A DNA stretch of 64,000 nucleotides from assembly GCA_963923955.1 (NCBI GenBank), contig OZ000552.1, positions 1,914,150 to 1,978,149 on the forward strand, given 5' to 3'. The first letter of the stretch is position 1, and each line of letters opens with the position of its first letter. Positions 2,846 to 45,302 of the stretch are shown here, one piece after another. The stretch comes from Gammaproteobacteria bacterium. Lineage in GTDB: Bacteria > Pseudomonadota > Gammaproteobacteria > Eutrophobiales > Eutrophobiaceae. The notes under the pieces were generated by a model. That model had not been told where the DNA came from and ran no database searches. It worked only from the letters and a program-made list of their open reading frames with translations. A program made the position numbers and the translations under genes.

Positions 2846-5800
2846 ATGAATAATAAATTTTTCCACCAGCCCATCTTGAACTCGCCTTATGAATATCCGG
2901 CCCGGCATTGGGCTTTGGATGAGGACGGCTTGCCGATGCAGATTATTAAGGAGCAGCGGCGCAAGGCCGCGTTCATCACGCCGGTGCCGGGGCCGAGGCA
3001 GCGCGGACAACAGCGCCAAGCGAACATGACCCTGGACAGCGGCGATGGCTTATCCACCGGCGAGCAGGAATATAGCCAGATGCCCATCATCAACGAGCTG
3101 CGCCGGCATGTGGATGACTGGCGCCGGTTGCCCAATGTGTGCGACTGGCAGGTTACGTCGGAAACAGCCATGTTGCTCACGCACTGGCGGCATCACGCCT
3201 TCCACGACATCCGTCCGTTTTTCTGCCAGGTGGAGGCCGCCGAAGTGGTCATCTGGCTAACGGAAGTCGCGCCCAAGATAGGCAAACGCGGCAAGCGCTT
3301 TCTTGAACACCTGCATGCCGCGAATGCTGCGGCCAGCGATGCGACTGAACAGGCGCCGCCGGCCCTGCCGCGCCTGGCCTTGAAACTGGCCACCGGCGCC
3401 GGCAAGACCACTGTGATGGCCATGCTGATTGCCTGGCAGGCGATCAACGCCGCGCGCCAACCGAACAGCCGACGCTTTACCAAAGGCTTTCTGATCGTAA
3501 CCCCAGGCATCACCATCAAAGACCGCCTGCGGGTGCTGCAACCCAATGATCCTGGTAGTTACTATCAAAGCCGCGAACTTGTCCCGAACAACATGCTGCA
3601 CGCGCTGCAAGAGGCCCGCATCGTCATCACCAACTACCACGCCTTCAAGCGCCGCGAGCGCCTGGATATTTCCAAAGGCGGCCGCGCCCTGCTGCAAGGC
3701 AAGGGCGGCGCGCCGCCCGCCACGCTGGAGAGCGACGGCCAGATGCTCCAGCGCGTCATCCCCGAGTTGCTGGGCCTGCAGCAGATCATGGTGCTGAACG
3801 ATGAGGCGCATCATTGCTATCGGGAAAAGCCGGGCAACAGCGCCGAGGGCCGGCTCAAGGGCGATGACAAGGCTGCTGCGGCCAGCAACAACGAGGCCGC
3901 CCGCCTGTGGCTATCAGGGCTGGAGGCCATCGCCGCCAAGCTGGACATCGCCCGTGTGCTGGATCTCTCGGCCACGCCGTTTTTTCTGCGCGGCGCCGGC
4001 TATCCCGAGAACACGCTGTTCCCCTGGACGATGAGCGATTTCTCGCTCATGGATGCGATTGAATGCGGCATCGTCAAGCTGCCGCGCGTGCCGGTGGCGG
4101 ACAACATCCCCGGCGATTCGCCCATGTACCGCCAGCTGTGGGCGCACATCGCTGAGGCGATGCCACGCAAGGGCCGGCGCAAGGCCGGCAAGCTGGACCC
4201 GCAGCAGTTGCCGGCGGCGCTGCAGACCGCCCTGGCCGCGCTCTATGGCCATTATGAGCAGACCTCTGCGCTGTGGCAAAAGGCGGGCAAGGCCGCGCCG
4301 CCTTGTTTCATCATCGTCTGCAACAACACCGCCAGCTCCAAGCTGGTGTATGACTACATCGCCGGTTTTCAGCGTGAAAACGCAGACGGCTCGACCACGC
4401 TGGTGCCGGGGCGGCTGGAACTGTTTCGTAACTTCGATGAGCAAGGCCGACGGCTGGCGCGCCCGCATACTTTATTGATCGACAGCGAGCAGTTGGAATC
4501 CGGCGAGGCGCTGGATAAAAACTTCCGCCAACTGGCGGCGACGGCGATCGAGCAGTTCCAGCAAGACCGAGCGCGGCGCGGCATACAGGGCGAGCTGGGC
4601 GATGCCGAGCTCTTGCGCGAGGTGATGAACACGGTCGGCCGACCGGGCGCCTTAGGCGGCAGCATTCGCTGCGTGGTCTCGGTCGCCATGCTGACCGAGG
4701 GCTGGGATGCCAACACGGTCACGCACATCCTCGGTGTGCGCGCCTTTGGCACGCAGCTGTTGTGCGAGCAGGTGGTCGGGCGGGCGCTGCGCCGACAATC
4801 CTATGCCCTGAACGAGGCCGGCCTGTTTGATGTGGAATACGCCGATGTGCTGGGCATTCCCTTTGACTTCACCGCCGAGCCGGTGGTGGCGCCGGCCAAA
4901 CCACCGCCCGACACCGTGCAGGTCAAGGCCATGCGCCCGGAACGAGATGCCTTAGAGATTCGCTTCCCGCGCGTGGTCGGCTATCGCACCGAGCCGCCGG
5001 CGGATAAGCTCACCGCCACCTTCAATGCCGATCATCGCTTTGAACTAACGCCCGATCTCGTTGGCGCCACCGAGACCCTTAATGAGGGCCTCATCGGGGA
5101 AGCGATCGATCTGACCCTCGCCCACTTGGATAAAGTGCGCCGCGCCACCGTGCTGTTTGAACTCACTCGGCGCCTGCTGCTGAACCATTACCGGGACGCA
5201 GACGGCGCGCCGAAGCTGTATCTTTTCGGGCAGCTAAAACGCATCACGCGGCAATGGCTGGATGGCTATCTCGTTTGCAAGGGCGGTACGCATCCGGCGC
5301 AGCTGATGTATCAGGCGCTGGCCGATATGGCTTGCGAGCGCATCACCGCCGCCATCACGCAGGCGCAACAGGGCCAGGCGCGCCCCGTCAAGGCCATGCT
5401 GGATGCCTATAACCCGAGCGGCTCCACCGCCCATGTCAACTTCACCAGCTCCAAGCCGACGCGCTGGGCGGCGGCTGCGCACAAATGCCACCTGAACTGG
5501 ATCATTTGTGACGGCAACTGGGAGGCCGAGTTTTGCCGCGTGGCCGAGGCACACGAGCGCGTGCTTGCCTATGTCAAAAATCACGGCCTGGGGCTGGAAG
5601 TGCCGTATCGTTATCAAAACCAGGTGCACCGCTACCGGCCGGACTTCATCGTGCAGATTGATGACGGCCAGGGCCGGGCTGATCCGCTGAATTTGATCGT
5701 AGAGATCAAGGGCCGGCGCAATGAGCAGGACAAGGACAAGAAACTGGCGATAGAGGAGTACTGGATCCCGGGCGTGAACAACTTAGGCGGCCACGGCCGC

Positions 5801-5914
5801 TGGGCCTTCGCCGAGTTCACCGATGTCTATCAGATGCAGCAGGATTTTGGGGATAGGGTGGAAATTGAATTTGGTAAAATGGTGCGTAATGCAATGACAG
5901 GAGACAAGCAATGA
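2846..5914 (+). CDS. res: Type III-like restriction enzyme Res subunit (SF2 helicase plus PD-(D/E)xK nuclease)
   Basis: The ORF-track ORF opens at 2804. I chose the ATG at 2846, which gives MNNKFFHQPILNSPYEYPARHW. Motifs are Walker A ATGAGKTTVMA, DEAH-like box VLNDEAHHCY, and a C-terminal nuclease-like RPDFIV...LIVEIKGRR. Confidence 0.8.
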   Translation: MNNKFFHQPILNSPYEYPARHWALDEDGLPMQIIKEQRRKAAFITPVPGPRQRGQQRQANMTLDSGDGLSTGEQEYSQMPIINELRRHVDDWRRLPNVCDWQVTSETAMLLTHWRHHAFHDIRPFFCQVEAAEVVIWLTEVAPKIGKRGKRFLEHLHAANAAASDATEQAPPALPRLALKLATGAGKTTVMAMLIAWQAINAARQPNSRRFTKGFLIVTPGITIKDRLRVLQPNDPGSYYQSRELVPNNMLHALQEARIVITNYHAFKRRERLDISKGGRALLQGKGGAPPATLESDGQMLQRVIPELLGLQQIMVLNDEAHHCYREKPGNSAEGRLKGDDKAAAASNNEAARLWLSGLEAIAAKLDIARVLDLSATPFFLRGAGYPENTLFPWTMSDFSLMDAIECGIVKLPRVPVADNIPGDSPMYRQLWAHIAEAMPRKGRRKAGKLDPQQLPAALQTALAALYGHYEQTSALWQKAGKAAPPCFIIVCNNTASSKLVYDYIAGFQRENADGSTTLVPGRLELFRNFDEQGRRLARPHTLLIDSEQLESGEALDKNFRQLAATAIEQFQQDRARRGIQGELGDAELLREVMNTVGRPGALGGSIRCVVSVAMLTEGWDANTVTHILGVRAFGTQLLCEQVVGRALRRQSYALNEAGLFDVEYADVLGIPFDFTAEPVVAPAKPPPDTVQVKAMRPERDALEIRFPRVVGYRTEPPADKLTATFNADHRFELTPDLVGATETLNEGLIGEAIDLTLAHLDKVRRATVLFELTRRLLLNHYRDADGAPKLYLFGQLKRITRQWLDGYLVCKGGTHPAQLMYQALADMACERITAAITQAQQGQARPVKAMLDAYNPSGSTAHVNFTSSKPTRWAAAAHKCHLNWIICDGNWEAEFCRVAEAHERVLAYVKNHGLGLEVPYRYQNQVHRYRPDFIVQIDDGQGRADPLNLIVEIKGRRNEQDKDKKLAIEEYWIPGVNNLGGHGRWAFAEFTDVYQMQQDFGDRVEIEFGKMVRNAMTGDKQ

Positions 5915-6981
5915 AGGCAATACTGGTAAAATCAGAACAAGACGAGGCAGCGATTAAGGGCTTGACAGGCAAATCGATCCCTTCCTACCGGCAGGCATAC
6001 AGCGATAGAACCGCCTGGCTTATGGCCTGTATGTCGGAGTTGGCGTATTTACGCTTTAACCCTCTGTTGCCGAATAAGCAAAAGGGCGAACTGCTTAGCG
6101 CAGTGGCCGAGGTGATCAGCGAGGACAGTAAAAAATCACTGCTGACCCTGGTGAATAAATTCGACTATGACCATGAGGCGGAAAAGCAGGCGCTGGAAAA
6201 GGAATTGGGTTATCTGGATTATGAGCTTGTCAAGACCTTTGATCATGAAGGTACGCAGGCCATTCTGGTGGCGAATGAAAAATATGTAATCCTGGCCTTC
6301 CGGGGAACAGAGGCCACCAGCATGAAAGACATCAAGGCGGATGCCAAAGCCATGCAGCAGGCCTGCGAGAGCGGCGGGAAAATCCACGGTGGCTTCCAAG
6401 ATGCGTATGAGCAGGTGGCACGGGATATTGAAACGGCGCTTGCTGATGAGGCGCTAACGTCCAAACCCTTGTTTATCACTGGCCACAGCCTTGGCGGGGC
6501 GCTGGCCACGATTGCGGCAAAGAAAATAACCCACAAAGGCGGCAACGCCGGCTGCTATACCTTCGGTGCGCCACGGGTCGGCGATGAGGAGTGGATTTCC
6601 AACATAAAGACGCCTTTGCACCGGGTAGTAAATGCCGCTGACTGCGTGACCATGCTGCCGCCGGGCGATGAAATAATCGGGATTTTCGCATGGCTATGCG
6701 GCTGGATCCCGAACGTGGGAGAGCAGATCAGAGCGTTTATGCTGTCAAAATTTGGCGGCTATCTGCACGGTGGCAACATGCGCTATCTAACGAATTGTAA
6801 CAAGAATGCCTATGCGGATGTGAAATTGCTGTATTCGGTTGGCTGGGTTTATAGAATGAAGATGATTGTTATGAAAAAACTCCCCTGGAAAAAGATGCTC
6901 ACCGATCACTCCATCAGCGTGTACAGAAAAAAGTTGATGGTGGTCGCGCAACGAAGGAACAAACAGGACGAGAGTGGATAA
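5911..6981 (+). CDS. Class-3 (Lipase_3) alpha/beta-hydrolase lipase, no signal peptide
   Basis: 356-aa ORF with ILAFRGTE, HGGF, the nucleophile elbow GHSLGGA, FGAPRVG, VVNAADCV (Asp) and TDHSISVY (His). The N-terminus MKAILVKSEQDEAAIKG is hydrophilic. AGGAG lies 7 nt upstream of the ATG. The ATG overlaps the res stop (ATGA at 5911-5914). Confidence 0.8.
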   Translation: MKAILVKSEQDEAAIKGLTGKSIPSYRQAYSDRTAWLMACMSELAYLRFNPLLPNKQKGELLSAVAEVISEDSKKSLLTLVNKFDYDHEAEKQALEKELGYLDYELVKTFDHEGTQAILVANEKYVILAFRGTEATSMKDIKADAKAMQQACESGGKIHGGFQDAYEQVARDIETALADEALTSKPLFITGHSLGGALATIAAKKITHKGGNAGCYTFGAPRVGDEEWISNIKTPLHRVVNAADCVTMLPPGDEIIGIFAWLCGWIPNVGEQIRAFMLSKFGGYLHGGNMRYLTNCNKNAYADVKLLYSVGWVYRMKMIVMKKLPWKKMLTDHSISVYRKKLMVVAQRRNKQDESG

Positions 6982-7070
6982 ACGGAGCTGTAGTGCGGCG
7001 ACGAACAGCAGGACTTTGCGGATAAAATTGAACCTGATCAGATACCGGAAACGACAACAGAAAAGAAACC

Positions 7071-7843
7071 ATGCAAAAACTGGAATCTGCCAGCATAGGA
7101 ACAGCCATTATCGAGTTGCGCGGTCAGCGAGTCATTCTGGCCGCCGATCTTGCTGCCTTCTACGGAATTGAAACCAAGCGTCTTAATGAAGCGGTAAAGC
7201 GCAACCGACGTAAATTCGAACAATATGCTTTTCAATTAAGAAAAAAGAATGGAATGCTTTGAAGTCGCAAATTGCGACCTCAAACGGCGGCCGGGGAGGA
7301 ACCCGTTATCCACCCTGGACATTTACCGAGCATGGCATAGTGATGGTGGCGACCGTACTCAACACAGAAACGGCAATCAAAGCCAGCCGTCTAATCGTGG
7401 AAGTATTCATCGCCCAGCGTCACAGGATGCAGCAAGGCGATGGCCTGGTGTTGCCCGTTGAGTCACATCGAGATCACACTGATCGGGCAAGTAAAATACA
7501 GCAGATTATTGATCATGTACTGGACTCCATAATTGATCCCGGGCGCCAAGCCACTGTACAGCAAGAGGCACAAGAGATTATTGGCGAGTCTTTGCAATAC
7601 ATTAAGGATCATCTGCAAAAACAGGGCTATCAAAATCACGAACTCGCCGCCAGGGCGAGTAAATACCTGGCCGAGGCGGAAAAAGCCAGGGCTGATGCCG
7701 CCAAGACACGCACCGAAACCGAATCTCTGGAATTTACCGTTTTGATGAAAAAACTGCGCCTGGTACTGGAGGCGCAACGATTGATTGACACCGGCAATGA
7801 CCAGCAATTCTTGAAACTGCTGGCTGAACTGACACCAGAATGA
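7071..7843 (+). pseudogene. ORF6N (KilA-N-like) DNA-binding domain protein; reading frame split at 7241-7247
   Basis: ORF 7071-7262 reads IIELRGQRVILAADLAAFYGIETKRLNEAVKRNRRKF..FQLRKK. ORF 7259-7843 reads (KKEWNAL)KSQIATSNGG..YPPWTFTEHGIVMVATVLNTETAIKASRLIVEVF. Together they reconstitute one ORF6N domain plus a coiled-coil tail. One extra A in the A6 run, or a -1 shift, restores the frame. Confidence 0.75.
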
Positions 7844-10746
7844 AGGAACCAACCATGCCTAAAAAGAAAACTGCAAAGAAAACTGCCAAGCAAGTAGAAA
7901 GCCTCGCTCATAAACAAGCGCGGCGGCGGCATATTCCTACTGCCGAGTATCAGTCCTTGCTGGATGAGGAACAACGCCGACCGCAGACGGTGACCTATGC
8001 CCGCAACCCGGATCTCGACCCGCAGCTCATCTGGCAGTGCGCGGAGGTGCCCTTATCGCAAGACCAGATTGAGGAATTGAAAGAAGGCAAGCCGATCACG
8101 CTGGAGCAGGCGCAGCTCATCTGGCGCGGCAAGGACAAGGCGGACCTGGCCGATCTCATCGTGGATGCTCCGCCGCTGTACATCCAGGAAAAAGTCCAGC
8201 CTAAGGCGCTGATTGACGACTTGCGCCGAGAAAGCGAGCAGAGCGAGGCCGAGCGCGCGAACCAAGAGACCGGCTTCACCGAAGACTTCTTTGCCGATTT
8301 CAACGGCCTATCCAGCGAGGCCGCCAAGACGGAGTTTTATCAACATGAGGCCAACTGGTCGAACCGCATGATCTTAGGCGATTCCTTGCAAGTGATAGCC
8401 AGCCTGGCCGGACGCGAGGGCCTGCGTGGGCGGGTGCAGTGCATCTATCTCGACCCGCCTTATGGCATCAAATTCAACTCTAATTTCCAGTTCTCCACCG
8501 CCAGCCGCGATGTCAAGGACGGCAAACCTGAGCACATCACGCGCGAGCCGGAGCAGGTAAAAGCCTTTCGCGACACCTGGCGCGACGGCATCCATTCGTA
8601 TCTAAGTTATCTGCGCGACCGGCTGACTGTGGCGCGTGATCTATTGACCGAATCAGGCAGCATCTTCGTGCAGATCGGCGATGAGAACGTGCATCGCGTA
8701 CGCTGCCTGATGGATGAGGTGTTTGGGGATGAGAATTTTGTAAGTTTAATCACTATTCAAAAAATGGCTGGTCTAGGATCTCAGTATCTTAAAGGTGCTT
8801 GTGATTATGTGATTTACTTTGGCCGTGATGCTACACGGACGAAATACCGTCAACTATTTTTTCCTAAGGTAGTAGGTAAAGGGCATGGTTCTGGCGCAAG
8901 ATATGATCAGGTTATCGATCCTTTTGGCAATCGGCTACCTATTAAGAAGGTTATTGACAATCTTGCCAAGTTTGAACAAGAAGGCTGGCATGTTGCCCAG
9001 CCTACTACGCTTACAACTTTCGGCTCCGGCGGATCTTCATTCTTCCCTGTAAACTTTCAGGGAGTTGAATATCTGCCCGCTGTAAACAAGGGTTGGCTTA
9101 CTCATACAGAAGGAATAAAGCGTTTAGAACAAGCAGGACGTATAATCCAGACTGGTAATTCTATTCGGTATGTGAGGCGATTAGCAGACCATCCTAGCTA
9201 CGAAATAAATAACATTTGGACAGATATAGCCAGCCCTCCTGACTTGGCATATGTTGTGCAAACATCTAAACGGTTGATAGAACGCTGCCTCCTAATGACC
9301 ACCGACCCGGGCGATCTGGTGTTGGATCCGACCTGCGGTTCCGGCACCACCGCGTACGTGGCCGAGCAATGGGGGCGACGCTGGATCACCATCGACACCT
9401 CGCGCGTGGCGCTTGCGCTGGCCCGGGCGCGGCTGATGGGCGCGCGCTATCCGTACTACCTGCTGGCCGACTCCGCCGACGGCCGCGCCAAAGAACAAGA
9501 ACTCGCCGGCAAGGCGCCGTCCACTACGCCCGCCGGCGGCGACATTCGTTTGGGTTTTGTGTATGAACGGGCGCCGCATATCACGCTGAAATCCATCGCC
9601 AACAACGCCGAGATCGATGTCATCTGGGAACGGTTTCAGGAGACGCTGGCGCCGCTGCGCGCAGCGCTGAATGCGGCCCTGGGCGAGCAGTGGGAGGAAT
9701 GGCAGGTGCCGCGCGAAGCCGATGCCGACTGGCCGGCGGCAGCGAAGCAGACCCATGCCGATTGGTGGGCGGGGCGCTTGGCGCGGCAGCAGGCGATCGA
9801 TGCGGCCATTACACACGGCGCGGCGGTGGAGCGTTTATACGACCGGCCGTATGAAGATCGCCGCCGGGTGCGGGTGGCCGGGCCCTTCACGGTGGAGAGC
9901 GCCTTGCCCTATCGCGCGCTGGGCGTGGGCGCGGACGATGAGTTGCTCGACCCGCTTGCGGCGCTGGCCGATGAAGCGCCCGACTTTGTGGCGATGATCC
10001 TGGAGAACTTAAAGGCCGCCGGCGTGCAGCAGGCGCACAAGGAAGACAAGCTGGATTTCAGCGCGCTGGAGCCGTGGCCGGGCAAGTTAATTTGCGCCGA
10101 AGGCACCTACAGCGAGGCGGACGGGGCGCAGCGGCATGCGGCGGTGTTTATCGGGCCGGAGTTCGGCACCGTGGCGCGCCGGGACTTGATGGCCGCGGCA
10201 CGCGAGGCGGTTGAGGCCGGCTTTGATGCGCTGATCGCGTGCGCCTTTAATTACGATGCGCATCTGGCTGAGGTGAACAAGCTGGGGCGGCTGCCTATCT
10301 TAAAGGCGCGCATGAATGCGGACTTGCACATGGCCGGTGAATTGAAAAACACCGACAAGGCCAATTTGTTCGTCATCTTCGGCGAGCCGGATATTGAGAT
10401 TGAGACGACCGACAAGGGGCAGCTGCGGGTGCGGATCATTGGCGTGGATGTGTTTGACCCGGCCAAGGGGGAGATCCGAAGCGATAACACGGACGGCATC
10501 GCCTGCTGGTTTATCGACACCGATTATAACGAGGAGAGTTTCTTTGTGCGCCATGCGTATTTCCTGGGCGCCAATGACCCGTACAAATCGCTGAAGACCA
10601 CGCTGCAAGCCGAGATCAACGAGGCGGCCTGGGCGAGCTTGCACAGCGATGTCTCCCGCCCCTTTGATAAGCCCGCCAGCGGCCGCATCGCGGTCAAAGT
10701 CATCAACCGCTTGGGCGATGAAGTGATGAAGGTGTTTGGGGTTTAG
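7840..10746 (+). CDS. mod: Type III-like DNA methyltransferase Mod subunit (beta-class N6A/N4C)
   Basis: 968-aa ORF. Motif IV IYLDPPYGIKFNSNF precedes motif I VLDPTCGSGTTAYVAEQWGRRWITID, which is the beta-class order. ATG 7840 overlaps the ORF6N stop. An alternative ATG at 7855 is preceded by GAAGGA. Confidence 0.85.
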   Translation: MKEPTMPKKKTAKKTAKQVESLAHKQARRRHIPTAEYQSLLDEEQRRPQTVTYARNPDLDPQLIWQCAEVPLSQDQIEELKEGKPITLEQAQLIWRGKDKADLADLIVDAPPLYIQEKVQPKALIDDLRRESEQSEAERANQETGFTEDFFADFNGLSSEAAKTEFYQHEANWSNRMILGDSLQVIASLAGREGLRGRVQCIYLDPPYGIKFNSNFQFSTASRDVKDGKPEHITREPEQVKAFRDTWRDGIHSYLSYLRDRLTVARDLLTESGSIFVQIGDENVHRVRCLMDEVFGDENFVSLITIQKMAGLGSQYLKGACDYVIYFGRDATRTKYRQLFFPKVVGKGHGSGARYDQVIDPFGNRLPIKKVIDNLAKFEQEGWHVAQPTTLTTFGSGGSSFFPVNFQGVEYLPAVNKGWLTHTEGIKRLEQAGRIIQTGNSIRYVRRLADHPSYEINNIWTDIASPPDLAYVVQTSKRLIERCLLMTTDPGDLVLDPTCGSGTTAYVAEQWGRRWITIDTSRVALALARARLMGARYPYYLLADSADGRAKEQELAGKAPSTTPAGGDIRLGFVYERAPHITLKSIANNAEIDVIWERFQETLAPLRAALNAALGEQWEEWQVPREADADWPAAAKQTHADWWAGRLARQQAIDAAITHGAAVERLYDRPYEDRRRVRVAGPFTVESALPYRALGVGADDELLDPLAALADEAPDFVAMILENLKAAGVQQAHKEDKLDFSALEPWPGKLICAEGTYSEADGAQRHAAVFIGPEFGTVARRDLMAAAREAVEAGFDALIACAFNYDAHLAEVNKLGRLPILKARMNADLHMAGELKNTDKANLFVIFGEPDIEIETTDKGQLRVRIIGVDVFDPAKGEIRSDNTDGIACWFIDTDYNEESFFVRHAYFLGANDPYKSLKTTLQAEINEAAWASLHSDVSRPFDKPASGRIAVKVINRLGDEVMKVFGV

Positions 10747-43534: not shown

Positions 43535-43649
43535 GTTAGGCTTTTCTATAACGCGCCAATGCCAAGCAAGCGCAGGAGTATCAGGAGGAGCATTCAACAC
43601 GCCTCCCTCCTGCCATCTTTATCATTCCCTGGCCTGACCTGAATTGGCC

Positions 43650-44232
43650 ATGAATACCTGGACGCAACGCAGCATTGAATACGCCAATCAACGATCCTAT
43701 CTGGACGATTTATTTCAGGTCTATCCTACAATTCCCGAAGGAATAAGGGAGATAGATGAAACCATTTGGCAAGCAGCTGAGATCGCATTCAGACAGAAAG
43801 ATAATCACGCTCTGATCAGGAAATTGTTAAAACTTGATCTTTTTCCAGCAAAGGACAGTTATATCGCCTATCTTAAAAGAGACAAATCGGCGATTGACAG
43901 AAATCCAAGAACAATTAACAGGATTTGTGGAAGAATCTATGAAATGGGCTTGGATAAGATTTTTGAGAAATGTAGTGAACCGAAAGAAACAAACAGGCAA
44001 ATCGGGCCGATGTTCAGAAATTGGCTAAAAAATAAATCACTTGGCATTGCGCCGGTTGCGCTTGAATATTTCCTGGCCAATGACAGGGGTTAATACGATC
44101 AAGATAGCGATTTTAGATGGCGTACTTTTTATTGAAGGTCAAAGTAAAATGTATCAAGCAATAACACAAAGCTATAAAGACGGTAACATTTTGAGCGCAT
44201 TGGTCTTGAGAGAGTTTTTATATTCGCTATAA
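43650..44232 (+). pseudogene. Frameshifted ORF abutting the methyltransferase; possibly the decayed cognate restriction endonuclease
   Basis: The frame opening at 43650 ends ...EYFLANDRG* at 44093. The +1 frame continues NTIKIAILDGVLFIEGQSK...REFLYSL to 44232, which is 2 nt before the methyltransferase ATG. Deleting one G from the G4 run at 44086-44089 fuses the two frames. I could not assign a family by eye. Confidence 0.4.
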
Positions 44233-44234
44233 GC

Positions 44235-45302
44235 ATGAAAAACTTGCTTATTAAAGGCGACAATATTGCCGGGCTGCATTATCTTTTAGCGGAAAAAAAC
44301 CTAAAGGGTAAAATTGACCTGGTGTATATTGACCCGCCCTTTGCTACGGGCGATAATTTTACCATAACTGCTGAGAGAGCCGCAACGATAAGTAATTCAC
44401 GAGATGGAGAAATCGCGTATTCGGATAAATTATCAGGCAATGATTTTTTGAATTTTATAAAAGCTCGCTTGATTATTCTAAAGGATTTATTATCCGAGCA
44501 GGGGTCTATCTATCTACATATCGACTATAAAATCGGGCACTATGTCAAAGTCATCATGGACGAGGTCTTTGGCATTGAAAACTTCAGAAACGATATTACA
44601 AGAATTAAATGTAACCCCAAAAACTTTAACCGAACAGGCTATGGCAATATAAAAGACTTAATTCTTTTCTATTCAAAATCTGCTAAACCGATATGGAACG
44701 AGCCAATAGAAAAATATACGGAGAAGGATTTAGAAAAACTTTTTCCAAAAAAAGATAAACAAGGCAGACGCTACACCACCGTACCCATTCACGCCCCGGG
44801 CGAGACCGAACGTGGAAAATCAAATCAAACATTCAAAGGAATGATGCCACCGACAGGCAGGCACTGGAGAACGGATGTTGAAAGCCTGGAGCAGTGGGAT
44901 GAAGCCGGTTTAATTGAGTGGTCTGCAACAGGAAATCCAAGAAAAATAATATTTTCCGACGAGCGGGAAGGAAAGAGAGTTCAAGACATTTGGGAATACA
45001 AAGACCCGCAATATCCTAGCTACCCCACTGAAAAAAACGCGGCACTATTAGACTTGATCGTCAAGACTTCATCCAATGAGGACAGTATCGTGCTGGATTG
45101 TTTTTGCGGCTCGGGTACCACTCTGGCAGCAGCGCGCACCAACGGCAGGCATTGGATAGGCATGGATCAATCTGACCATGCAATAAGGGCGGCTAAAGAG
45201 AAAATTGAATCCATCGACGGCGACTTGTTTGCCGCCAAGCCGGATTATGAATTTTTGGATTTGGAAAAAGATACGATCACCAACACGGCCTGCAGCGCCT
45301 AG
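44235..45302 (+). CDS. Beta-class N6A/N4C DNA methyltransferase (N6_N4_Mtase family)
   Basis: 355-aa ORF. Motif IV VYIDPPFATGDNF lies near the N-terminus and motif I VLDCFCGSGTTLAAA near the C-terminus. Local GC is low (30% in 44401-44460). Confidence 0.85.
   Translation: MKNLLIKGDNIAGLHYLLAEKNLKGKIDLVYIDPPFATGDNFTITAERAATISNSRDGEIAYSDKLSGNDFLNFIKARLIILKDLLSEQGSIYLHIDYKIGHYVKVIMDEVFGIENFRNDITRIKCNPKNFNRTGYGNIKDLILFYSKSAKPIWNEPIEKYTEKDLEKLFPKKDKQGRRYTTVPIHAPGETERGKSNQTFKGMMPPTGRHWRTDVESLEQWDEAGLIEWSATGNPRKIIFSDEREGKRVQDIWEYKDPQYPSYPTEKNAALLDLIVKTSSNEDSIVLDCFCGSGTTLAAARTNGRHWIGMDQSDHAIRAAKEKIESIDGDLFAAKPDYEFLDLEKDTITNTACSA

What the first reader, a model, noticed from the sequence alone, without database searches (positions are those of the whole stretch)
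2846..10746. Type III-like R-M operon with a class-3 lipase and an ORF6N gene embedded between res and mod
Seen in the sequence:
- Four co-directional ORFs form one tight unit.
- res (2846-5914) has Walker A GAGKTT, an NDEAHH box and a C-terminal RPDF..VEIKG nuclease-like motif.
- The lipase (5911-6981) has an ATG that overlaps the res stop (ATGA) and its own AGGAG.
- The ORF6N DNA-binding gene spans 7071-7843.
- mod has DPPY ... CGSGTT. Its candidate ATG at 7840 overlaps the ORF6N stop, and an alternative ATG at 7855 is preceded by GAAGGA.

Established knowledge:
- Canonical Type III systems are two-gene mod/res units.
- A precedent for a passenger effector kept inside an R-M operon is the anticodon nuclease PrrC in the EcoprrI Type Ic locus.
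- Lipase or phospholipase effectors occur in other defence systems, such as the patatin CapV in CBASS and lipase-type Lamassu effectors.

Inference: the lipase may be a membrane-directed backup or abortive-infection effector coupled to the R-M complex, with ORF6N acting as regulator or sensor. I know of no described system with this architecture.
Basis: partly seen in the sequence, partly recalled or inferred. Interest (0 to 1): 0.8.

Follow-up and report, generated by a model that had tools for sequence, protein, structure and literature searches.

The report
Lipase cargo inside Type III restriction operon
An intact restriction-modification operon carries two unrelated guest genes, a lipase and a broken DNA-binding gene, in a slot between its two enzyme genes that often holds defence-type guests in related operons; the same lipase family also sits inside a second, unrelated Type III operon family, which makes it a candidate new anti-phage gene.

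Summary
The "ORF6N gene" is not one ORF: a 1-nt frameshift in an A6 run (7241-7246) splits it.

- **R-M backbone.** res and mod belong to a very large, annotated but uncharacterised Type III-like family (NCBIfam "BPTD_3080 family restriction endonuclease" plus a ~970-aa Mod). The order was res then mod in all 69 loci that held both genes.
- **The slot.** In those 69 species-level loci the two genes abut in 22. In 41 they are separated by 0.6-4.6 kb of mostly co-directional genes: HepT/MNT, PIN, Fic, GmrSD, Bro-N, Schlafen/AlbA_2, a PDDEXK nuclease, and an ATPase with a protease.
- **The lipase.**
  - It behaves as a one-gene cassette with an invariant Ser-Asp-His triad.
  - dN/dS between embedded copies is 0.11-0.16.
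  - Its three closest relatives are also embedded in this R-M family.
  - More distant relatives lie between mod and res of a second, canonical Type III family (7 of 71 loci).
  - About 85-90% of the family lies outside R-M loci.
- **ORF6N.** It matches PADLOC candidate PDC-S05 and never co-occurs with the lipase elsewhere.

Verdict: this is a new variant of the known "defence genes embedded in defence systems" pattern. Any lipase role in defence, or coupling to R-M, is inferred and untested.

The parts
2846..5914 (+). res: BPTD_3080-family Type III-like restriction subunit (1022 aa). It has an SF2 helicase region (GAGKTT, DEAHH) and a C-terminal PD-(D/E)xK-like nuclease motif (RPDF...VEIKG).
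   Evidence: ORF and motifs. Pfam ResIII 2.4e-10, with weak RE_endonuc. NCBIfam NF046055 at 1270 bits against a cut-off of 800. About 68% identical to thousands of proteins from many phyla. GC3 0.78, against 0.64-0.71 in the flanking genes.
5911..6981 (+). Embedded cargo 1: a class-3 lipase (356 aa) with no N-terminal signal peptide apparent by eye. Its start codon overlaps the res stop codon (ATGA).
   Evidence: Pfam Lipase_3 3e-26. Ser193 (GHSLGG), Asp244 and His333 are invariant in 18 homologues. ATGA overlap and AGGAGA. DNA homology to L086, L088 and L004 begins 0-11 nt before the ATG or runs on from res, and ends about 25 nt after the stop codon, so it behaves as a one-gene cassette. dN/dS 0.11-0.16. 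No PADLOC match.
7071..7262 (+). Embedded cargo 2, 5' part: the N-terminal half of an ORF6N-domain gene, ending at a premature stop codon caused by the frameshift.
   Evidence: Pfam ORF6N 2e-16, profile positions 2-51. PADLOC PDC-S05 4.6e-18.
7241..7246 (+). A6 homopolymer run where the ORF6N reading frame breaks (a 1-nt frameshift).
   Evidence: Sequence. Inserting one A restores a 257-aa ORF that aligns through the junction with the L083 ORF6N protein.
7259..7843 (+). Embedded cargo 2, 3' part: the rest of the ORF6N domain plus a C-terminal tail that looks helical by eye, in another reading frame.
   Evidence: Pfam ORF6N profile positions 55-86. PADLOC PDC-S05 1.4e-16. GC3 0.54.
7840..10746 (+). 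mod: Type III beta-class N6-adenine DNA methyltransferase (968 aa). DPPY precedes CGSGTT, and a C-terminal extension of about 430 aa follows.
   Evidence: Pfam N6_N4_Mtase 7.7e-30. PADLOC MTase_III PDLC03632 at 1251 bits over the full length. It lies downstream of res in all 69 loci that hold both genes.
8596..9345 (+). Target-recognition region of mod. It has low GC and is unrelated to the same region in homologues.
   Evidence: GC 0.46 and GC3 0.42, against 0.72-0.80 in the rest of mod. Only 22-34% identity to any homologue in this stretch, against 84-92% in the catalytic regions.

Best explanation
**What it is.** Window 2846-10746 is an intact Type III-like R-M operon of the BPTD_3080 family, in the order res then mod. 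It is flanked by housekeeping genes.

**The slot.** The junction between res and mod is, across the whole family, a slot that accumulates co-directional accessory genes of defence or toxin type. In this genome the slot holds two independent cassettes:
1. A catalytically intact class-3 lipase with no signal peptide apparent by eye, read through from res by a 4-nt stop/start overlap.
2. An ORF6N (PDC-S05-type) gene disabled by a 1-nt frameshift.

**The lipase.** It is a self-contained one-gene module. Type III R-M operons of two unrelated architectures have captured it repeatedly, and selection maintains it there.

**Most likely mechanism (inferred, not shown).** The lipase is co-transcribed with the R-M genes and acts as a second-line, stand-alone effector. 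When triggered during infection, this phospholipase/lipase would damage the cell's own membrane lipids and abort the infection. Embedding would give it co-regulation and co-transfer with the R-M system, not obligatory physical coupling to it.

**Shown:** family memberships, the slot, recurrence, cassette boundaries, purifying selection and mosaic composition.
**Inferred:** co-transcription, defence function, membrane substrate and trigger.
For: **Backbone**
- NCBIfam NF046055 scores 1270 bits. PADLOC MTase_III scores 1251 bits.

**The slot in the BPTD_3080 family**
- 80 species-level loci were fetched. Of the 69 with both genes, 22 have a gap under 150 bp and 41 have a gap of at least 600 bp, up to 4.6 kb.
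- 61 of 70 cargo ORFs of at least 100 aa are co-directional. In 11 of 46 loci the first cargo ORF overlaps the res stop by 4 nt, as it does here.
- Cargo families found: HepT plus nucleotidyltransferase, Bro-N, Schlafen AlbA_2, Fic, PIN, YhcG PDDEXK nuclease, NYN, GmrSD, AAA plus subtilase, AAA_21 plus DUF4276, M78 peptidase plus HTH, and a ClpP-like protease.

**Lipase recurrence**
- L086/L087 (79% identity): res-lipase-59 aa-DUF3800-mod.
- L088 (74%): res-...-lipase-...-mod.
- L004 (69%): lipase-2 ORFs-mod.
- A second Type III family runs mod-lipase-res, with the lipase stop abutting the res start, in L097, L098, L113 and L130. The lipase is present in 7 of 71 loci of that family.
- PADLOC calls those flanking genes REase_III (4.9e-227) and MTase_III (6.1e-192).
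- ResIII/DEAD (5) and N6_N4_Mtase (4) were the most frequent Pfam families among the 146 immediate neighbours of 80 lipase genes; every other listed family had two members or fewer.

**Lipase is functional while embedded**
- The catalytic triad is invariant.
- dN/dS is 0.11-0.16 between embedded copies.

**Modularity**
- Homology blocks end at the edges of the lipase ORF.
- GC3 is mosaic: res 0.78, lipase 0.63, ORF6N 0.41-0.54, mod recognition region 0.42, mod C-terminal part 0.80.

**Transcription and precedent**
- No plus-strand terminator-like site lies between the genes.
- Embedding of defence genes in defence operons, 96.7% of them co-oriented, is described in Payne et al. 2024, bioRxiv 10.1101/2024.01.29.577857.
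Against: - No experiment links this lipase family to phage defence. It has no PADLOC match, and no paper was found.
- Most homologues are outside R-M loci. About 70 of the best 80 species-level loci and 6 of 6 metagenome loci are not embedded.
- Several sit next to plain housekeeping genes, such as an alanyl-tRNA synthetase, dehydrogenases, and hslU/ubiE in L005.
- The family is unusually well conserved for a defence gene: 57-63% identity across genera, with mean column identity 66%.
- No immunity or regulatory partner is conserved next to the embedded copies. How a cytoplasmic lipase would be kept harmless is therefore unexplained.
- Several lipase-bearing R-M loci are degraded while the lipase stays intact (L088, L092, L113, L004). 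This argues against dependence on R-M. It fits a non-defence role as well as it fits a stand-alone defence role.
- Co-transcription is inferred only from spacing and the absence of predicted signals.
Confidence: 0.5

Rival explanations
1. PrrC-like guardian. The lipase binds the Res/Mod complex and is held inactive by it. It is released when a phage anti-restriction protein disables the R-M enzyme, and it then kills the cell by degrading the membrane.
For: - The lipase start overlaps the res stop.
- In the second Type III family the lipase stop abuts the res start in four loci. The lipase therefore usually lies next to res in two unrelated architectures.
- It is recurrently embedded specifically in Type III systems. 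No Type I, BREX or other system recurs among its neighbours.
- Guardian precedents exist: PrrC/EcoprrI and PARIS (PMC12707154).
Against: - About 85-90% of the family is not in R-M loci. PrrC, by contrast, is reported to be almost exclusively embedded.
- The lipase stays intact where res or mod is frameshifted, truncated or absent (L088, L004, L092, L113).
- In L178 it lies next to mod, not res. In L088 it lies 600 bp away from res.
- Adjacency to res is partly forced when the lipase is the only cargo.
- There is no evidence of any interaction.
Confidence: 0.17
2. Non-defence passenger. The lipase is an ordinary accessory lipid-metabolism or host-interaction enzyme of marine and sponge-associated bacteria. 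It landed in a permissive "genomic sink" inside R-M operons and hitch-hikes with them, with no role in immunity.
For: - Most family members lie in non-defence or housekeeping neighbourhoods.
- Sequence conservation is high across genera.
- The recurrent non-R-M partner is a lipoprotein-like ORF of about 217 aa plus a 94-aa ORF, neither with any Pfam match.
- In the second Type III family the slot also holds TPR proteins and kinases, which are not obviously defensive.
- Payne et al. themselves raise the genomic-sink explanation.
Against: - The lipase was captured at least twice independently by two unrelated Type III families and kept under purifying selection.
- The most frequent annotated neighbours of the family are Type III R-M genes.
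- It is translationally coupled to res.
- The other cargo in the same slot is dominated by known defence or toxin families.
- Neighbourhoods elsewhere are highly variable (198 of 286 neighbour ORFs are singletons), as expected for a mobile accessory gene.
Confidence: 0.28
3. Dedicated four-component system. res, lipase, ORF6N and mod co-evolved as one machine, with ORF6N as its DNA-binding sensor or regulator.
For: The genes are tightly spaced and co-directional in the window.
Against: - ORF6N is frameshifted here.
- No ORF6N match was found in any other lipase-bearing locus searched.
- Only 1 of 80 other family loci has ORF6N, and it has no lipase.
- Codon composition differs between the two inserts.
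- 22 of 69 family loci have no insert at all.
Confidence: 0.03

Closest known systems
Defence genes embedded in defence operons ("guilt-by-embedding"; Payne, Hughes, Fineran and Jackson 2024, bioRxiv 10.1101/2024.01.29.577857). Examples: TgvAB in the Vibrio cholerae VPI-2 Type I R-M locus (PMC11411939) and BrxU in BREX.
   Same: - Accessory genes are nested between the genes of one known system.
- They are almost always co-oriented with it.
- The cargo is variable from locus to locus and includes GmrSD, PIN, ABC/AAA ATPases and ORF6N (PDC-S05).
   Different: - That work covered Hma, BREX, DISARM and Type I R-M.
- Here the hosts are two Type III families. The guest of interest, a class-3 lipase, has no PADLOC match and was not found in that paper's text or in its supplementary files held as text.
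PrrC anticodon nuclease in the EcoprrI Type Ic locus (an R-M guardian)
   Same: A single effector gene sits inside an R-M operon and would be expressed with it.
   Different: - PrrC is an ABC-ATPase/tRNA nuclease, found almost only inside Type I loci and shown to be silenced by the R-M complex.
- The lipase is an alpha/beta hydrolase, lies mostly outside R-M loci, and persists in degraded R-M loci.
- Coupling is untested.
Canonical Type III R-M (EcoP1I/EcoP15I type)
   Same: - Mod is a beta-class N6-adenine methyltransferase with its recognition region between DPPY and FxGxG-type motifs.
- Res has SF2 helicase motifs plus a C-terminal PD-(D/E)xK nuclease.
   Different: - Gene order is res then mod.
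- Mod is about 970 aa, with an extra C-terminal region of about 430 aa.
- The operon is interrupted.
- No family member with published biochemistry was found, and the family has no sequence-detectable relative in the PDB.
Lipase or phospholipase effectors of defence systems (the CBASS patatin CapV; lipase-type Lamassu effectors). This comparison rests on my own knowledge.
   Same: A serine hydrolase acting on lipids is a plausible cell-killing effector.
   Different: - The fold family differs from patatin.
- No PADLOC model matches.
- No sensor or signalling partner is present.

Membership tests
Type III restriction-modification | Mod is a beta-class N6-adenine methyltransferase: motif IV (DPPY) lies upstream of motif I (FxGxG-like), with the recognition domain between them. 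| tested here: met
   YLDPPYG, then a variable region, then DPTCGSGTT. Pfam N6_N4_Mtase 7.7e-30. PADLOC MTase_III 1251 bits.
Type III restriction-modification | Res has SF2 helicase motifs and a PD-(D/E)xK nuclease. | tested here: met
   GAGKTT, DEAHH and RPDF...VEIKG. ResIII 2.4e-10. The nuclease-domain Pfam hit is only sub-threshold at 1e-3.
Type III restriction-modification | A contiguous two-gene operon in the order mod then res. | tested here: not met
   The order is res then mod in the window and in all 69 family loci with both genes. The operon is interrupted by 1.9 kb here.
Type III restriction-modification | ATP-dependent cleavage that needs two inversely oriented unmethylated sites, with hemi-methylation by Mod. 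| not testable with these tools
   This needs biochemistry and methylome data.
BPTD_3080-family restriction endonuclease (NCBIfam NF046055) | Whole-protein score above the curated cut-off. | tested here: met
   1270.4 bits against a cut-off of 800. Model positions 2-968 of 970 are aligned.
Embedded defence cargo (sensu Payne et al. 2024) | Flanked on both sides by genes of one known defence system and co-oriented with them. | tested here: met
   res and mod flank the lipase and ORF6N, and all are on the + strand.
Embedded defence cargo (sensu Payne et al. 2024) | Confers anti-phage protection. | not testable with these tools
   This needs plaque assays.
PrrC-like R-M guardian | Found (almost) exclusively inside R-M loci. 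| tested here: not met
   Only about 8 of the best 80 species-level lipase loci, and 0 of 6 metagenome loci, are in R-M operons.
PrrC-like R-M guardian | Held inactive by the R-M complex and activated by anti-restriction proteins. | not testable with these tools
   No interaction or activity data are available.
Class-3 lipase (Pfam Lipase_3) | Profile match above the cut-off and a Ser-Asp-His triad with a GxSxG nucleophile elbow. | tested here: met
   92.4 bits against a cut-off of 22. S193, D244 and H333 are invariant. PDB profile hits to fungal class-3 lipases reach 2.8e-18.
ORF6N / PADLOC PDC-S05 | Profile match and an intact reading frame. | tested here: not met
   Both halves match, but the frame is broken in the A6 run at 7241-7246.
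Known lipase-type defence effectors in PADLOC | Match to any PADLOC-DB v2 model. | tested here: not met
   0 families at E <= 0.01.

The most novel reading that the evidence does not exclude
The lipase is a dedicated partner of Type III restriction enzymes: a membrane-destroying guardian that Res holds in check. It would fire when the R-M enzyme is blocked or stalls on phage DNA. The res-mod (or mod-res) junction of Type III systems would then be a general docking slot for such second-line effectors. This would be the first lipid-targeting guardian of an R-M system and the first effector class specifically tied to Type III enzymes.
Probability: 0.15. Interest if true: 0.8.

Novelty: new variant of a known kind. 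Interest (0 to 1): 0.55.

Why it matters
- **Extends a known pattern.** Embedding of defence genes has been documented for Hma, BREX, DISARM and Type I R-M. This extends it to two large Type III families, where 60-80% of the sampled loci carry cargo. That opens an unmined pool of candidate defence genes, especially in environmental and sponge-symbiont genomes.
- **Nominates a testable candidate.** A conserved one-gene class-3 lipase of about 350 aa, absent from PADLOC, could be a new single-gene abortive-infection effector.
- **Offers a question to test.** The recurrent Type III context provides a natural system for asking whether embedded effectors are functionally coupled to their host R-M enzyme or merely co-transferred with it.
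- **Corrects annotation.** ORF6N should be annotated as disrupted, and the operon as R-M plus cargo, not as a four-component system.

Tried and rejected
- **Exact-sequence look-up of the window lipase.** Not on record.
- **Single-protein scans for close lipase relatives.** Genome contigs gave 5 loci and metagenome contigs gave 6. The metagenome loci were all 52-61% identical and none lay in an R-M operon. The two closest embedded relatives came only from look-ups of protein-search hits.
- **AlphaFold2 model of the lipase from 18 sequences.** Mean pLDDT was 62 and the C-terminal third fell below 50. I judged it too poor for a fold search and did not use it.
- **PDB sequence search with the res profile.** No hit.
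- **Integration scars.** A search for flanking direct or inverted repeats around the island found only short chance-level matches. No tRNA or Rfam match occurs in the window, and no integrase was seen among the Pfam-scanned flanking ORFs.
- **A conserved small partner gene downstream of the lipase.** The 59-aa ORF of L086 and the 65-aa ORF of L088 are unrelated to each other and to the window. Rejected.
- **The res C-terminus travelling with the lipase as a recombination unit.** Only a weak signal: 68-74% identity against a family median of 59-65% over the last 250 aa. Not relied on.
- **Literature searches.** "BPTD_3080", Lipase_3 with defence, and Type III with embedded genes returned nothing relevant. 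The held supplementary files of the Payne et al. preprint contain none of the search terms (lipase, PDC-S05, ORF6N, RM_type_III).
Full report
**1. What is in the sequence**

The plus strand of 2846-10746 carries five mechanical ORFs, not four.

- **res (2846-5914).**
  - The longest ORF starts at TTG 2804. ATG 2846 gives MNNKFFHQPILNSPYEYP, which matches the consensus N-terminus of 19 homologues.
  - The Walker A motif GAGKTT, the DEAH box NDEAHH and the nuclease-like RPDF...VEIKG are all present.
  - Pfam gives ResIII at 2.4e-10, plus a sub-threshold RE_endonuc match.
  - NCBIfam places it in NF046055, "BPTD_3080 family restriction endonuclease", at 1270 bits against a cut-off of 800.
- **Lipase (5911-6981).**
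  - Its ATG overlaps the res TGA, and AGGAGA lies 8 nt upstream.
  - Pfam Lipase_3 scores 3e-26.
- **mod (7840-10746).**
  - It has DPPY, then a variable region, then CGSGTT.
  - It matches PADLOC MTase_III model PDLC03632 end to end at 1251 bits.
  - ATG 7840 overlaps the upstream TGA. ATG 7855 follows GAAGGA. Homologues align only from residue 18-19 onward, so the true start is open.
- **ORF6N.**
  - The claimed gene (7071-7843, 773 nt) is not one ORF.
  - ORF 7071-7262 carries ORF6N profile positions 2-51. ORF 7259-7843, in another frame, carries positions 55-86 plus a tail.
  - The break is in the A6 run at 7241-7246. One extra A restores a 257-aa protein that aligns across the junction with an ORF6N protein in locus L083 (E = 1e-20).
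  - I cannot tell a real pseudogene from a homopolymer sequencing error.
- **Signals and surroundings.**
  - No plus-strand terminator-like site lies between the genes: the only two predicted lie inside res and inside mod. No convincing internal plus-strand promoter is predicted either.
  - The flanking genes are housekeeping: RNase D, a cNMP-binding ZIP transporter, amidohydrolases and a photolyase-related protein.
  - No integrase, tRNA or flanking repeat was found.

**2. The R-M backbone is a known, very widespread family**

- The res protein is about 68% identical to thousands of proteins from Bacillota, Pseudomonadota, Planctomycetota, Acidobacteriota and other phyla. Many of them are named "BPTD_3080 family restriction endonuclease" or "type III restriction enzyme".
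- A profile scan of one genome per species found at least 593 relatives, and I fetched the best 80.
- In all 69 loci that hold both genes, mod lies downstream of res on the same strand. This is the reverse of the canonical EcoP15I order.
- No paper mentions the family name, and it has no sequence-detectable relative in the PDB.

**3. The res-mod junction is a cargo slot**

- In those 69 loci the estimated distance from the res stop to the mod start is under 150 bp in 22. It is 150-600 bp in 6 and 600-4600 bp in 41.
- The intervening ORFs fall into many unrelated families.
- Pfam identifies the following:
  - HepT with its nucleotidyltransferase partner
  - Bro-N proteins of about 280 aa
  - Schlafen AlbA_2/HATPase_c_4
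  - Fic/DOC
  - PIN
  - YhcG PDDEXK nuclease
  - 23S_rRNA_IVP
  - NYN
  - GmrSD
  - AAA ATPase plus subtilase
  - AAA_21/AAA_15 plus DUF4276
  - M78 peptidase plus HTH
  - a ClpP-like serine protease
- Of the cargo ORFs of at least 100 aa, 61 of 70 are co-directional with res and mod.
- In 11 of 46 loci the first cargo ORF overlaps the res stop codon by 4 nt, exactly as the lipase does here.
- This is the pattern Payne et al. (bioRxiv 10.1101/2024.01.29.577857) describe for Hma, BREX, DISARM and Type I R-M, where 96.7% of embedded genes are co-oriented. That paper's only mention of "type III" refers to DRT type III, not Type III R-M.
- The PDC-S05 model that both ORF6N halves hit belongs to the set of phage-defence candidates that paper added to PADLOC.

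**4. The lipase is a recurrent guest of Type III operons**

*Size and conservation of the family*
- The lipase family is large: 4678 hits at E <= 1e-5, and 421 species-level relatives.
- It is well conserved. Ser193, Asp244 and His333 are invariant, and mean column identity is 66%.

*Embedding in the BPTD_3080 family*
- The three closest relatives of the window protein are all embedded in this R-M family.

| Locus | Identity to window lipase | Gene order |
|---|---|---|
| L086 (partial duplicate L087) | 79% | res (frameshifted)-lipase-59 aa-DUF3800-mod |
| L088 | 74% | res (frameshifted)-two small ORFs-lipase-small ORFs-mod (truncated)-transposase remnants |
| L004 | 69% | lipase (frameshifted)-two unknown ORFs-mod, no res |

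- None of them has ORF6N.
- Relatives at 59-63% identity (L001, L002, L003, L005) are not in R-M loci.

*Embedding in a second Type III family*
- Among the best 80 species-level lipase loci, seven lie in or beside a second, unrelated Type III system in the canonical order mod then res (L092, L097, L098, L104, L113, L130, L135).
  - Its mod is 577 aa (N6_N4_Mtase) and its res is 844 aa (ResIII/DEAD).
  - PADLOC scores these as MTase_III at 6.1e-192 and REase_III at 4.9e-227.
- The lipase stop abuts the res start in L097, L098, L113 and L130.
- A scan for that res family returned 71 loci, mostly sponge-symbiont genomes. The mod-res gap is at least 400 bp in 49 of them, and the lipase is present in 7.
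- Other cargo in that slot includes PIN (11), TPR proteins (about 10), DUF1828 (7), ORC/CDC6-like ATPases and protein kinases.

*Phylogeny and neighbours*
- In a neighbour-joining tree the four BPTD-embedded lipases form one clade. The lipases embedded in the second family fall in at least two other places. This implies at least two independent captures. It is a rough tree.
- Across 146 immediate neighbours of 80 lipase genes, ResIII/DEAD (5) and N6_N4_Mtase (4) were the most frequent Pfam families, and every other listed family had two members or fewer. The most frequent PADLOC hits were Type III R-M models.
- 198 of 286 neighbour ORFs are singletons.

**5. The lipase is a self-contained, selected module**

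- DNA homology between the window and L086 runs continuously from the res 3' end through the lipase and stops about 25 nt after its stop codon.
- Against L004 it starts at the lipase ATG. Against L088 it starts 11 nt upstream.
- The small ORFs downstream are not conserved.
- dN/dS between embedded copies is 0.11-0.16, with dS above 1.
- Codon composition is mosaic, which indicates assembly from different sources.

| Segment | GC3 |
|---|---|
| res | 0.78 |
| lipase | 0.63 |
| ORF6N | 0.41-0.54 |
| mod catalytic parts | 0.72-0.80 |
| mod recognition region | 0.42 |
| flanking genes | 0.64-0.71 |

**6. Interpretation**

- *Shown.* This is an intact BPTD_3080-type R-M operon whose junction slot holds two independent cassettes. 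The lipase cassette recurs in Type III operons of two architectures and is maintained by selection. ORF6N is an unrelated, frequently embedded gene that is disrupted here.
- *Inferred.* The lipase is co-transcribed with res and mod. It serves as a second-line effector, probably a phospholipase that causes abortive infection. It most likely acts on its own.
- *Why stand-alone is more likely than a PrrC-like guardian.* Most of the family lies outside R-M loci. Embedded copies also stay intact where res or mod is broken or missing (L088, L004, L092, L113).
- *Status of the rivals.*
  - The guardian model is not excluded, because the lipase usually lies next to res in both families.
  - A purely non-defensive passenger remains a serious rival. 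The family is strongly conserved, often has housekeeping neighbours, has no PADLOC match, and has no evident means of self-protection.

**7. Caveats**

- ORF calls in fetched loci are mechanical, and gaps are estimated from tblastn coordinates.
- Only the best 80 of at least 593 BPTD_3080 loci and the best 80 of 421 lipase loci were examined.
- Many loci come from metagenome-assembled genomes, where single-base frameshifts may be errors. Large deletions are not.
- The lipase structure model was poor (pLDDT 62) and was not used.

**8. Verdict**

- This is a new variant of a known kind: embedded defence-type cargo, now seen in Type III R-M, with a class-3 lipase as a new candidate.
- Interest is moderate, at 0.55.

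Noticed in passing
window 43644-45302: A second, small R-M-like patch with low GC (about 0.47). It holds a 355-aa N6_N4-type DNA methyltransferase (DPPF...CGSGTT; 26-28% identical to both Type III Mods), preceded by an unannotated 149-aa ORF. It lies between what look by eye like a TonB-dependent receptor gene and an endonuclease III gene.
   Followed up: partly
window 8596-9345: The recognition region of mod has GC3 0.42, against 0.72-0.80 for the rest of the gene. It is only 22-34% identical to any homologue. This fits swapping of the specificity domain.
   Followed up: partly
L169-L239 (for example L180:301-6893, L185:2180-6844, L201:592-5220, L234:2221-6880): The second (canonical) Type III family, mostly from sponge-symbiont genomes, also has a heavily used mod-res slot. 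A conserved three-gene cargo (about 378, 820 and 365 aa) recurs in four loci. Across the slot cargo as a whole, PIN, TPR, DUF1828, ORC/CDC6-like and protein-kinase domains are the commonest Pfam hits.
   Followed up: partly
L135:8001-13411 (the same place as L186): The lipase is followed by a 122-aa N-terminal fragment of res, then two unrelated ORFs, then a full-length res. This looks like a scar of cargo insertion or exchange by recombination at the 5' end of res.
   Followed up: no
L090:9073-9726, L093:7106-8054, L094, L096, L117 and others: Outside R-M loci the lipase is often followed by an ORF of about 217 aa that looks by eye like a lipoprotein (16 family members among the neighbours, 12 of them immediately downstream). 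A 94-aa ORF follows as the second downstream gene in 8 loci. Neither has a Pfam match. They may be a functional partner or an immunity pair.
   Followed up: partly
L088:6340-14400; L004:10001-16271; L092:7086-9373; L113:6801-7922: In several loci the lipase ORF is intact, or nearly so, while the surrounding res and/or mod is frameshifted, truncated or missing. The guest seems to outlive its host system.
   Followed up: partly
L089:6391-7944: One non-embedded lipase homologue sits directly downstream of a PD-Lambda-1 defence gene (DUF4041/T5orf172; PADLOC 3e-120).
   Followed up: no
L060:13102-14357 and seven or eight loci of the second family (for example L174:5715-7000): A two-gene cargo (about 150 aa plus about 260 aa, not individually annotated) occurs in the slots of both Type III families. 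Like the lipase, it is shared between the two.
   Followed up: no
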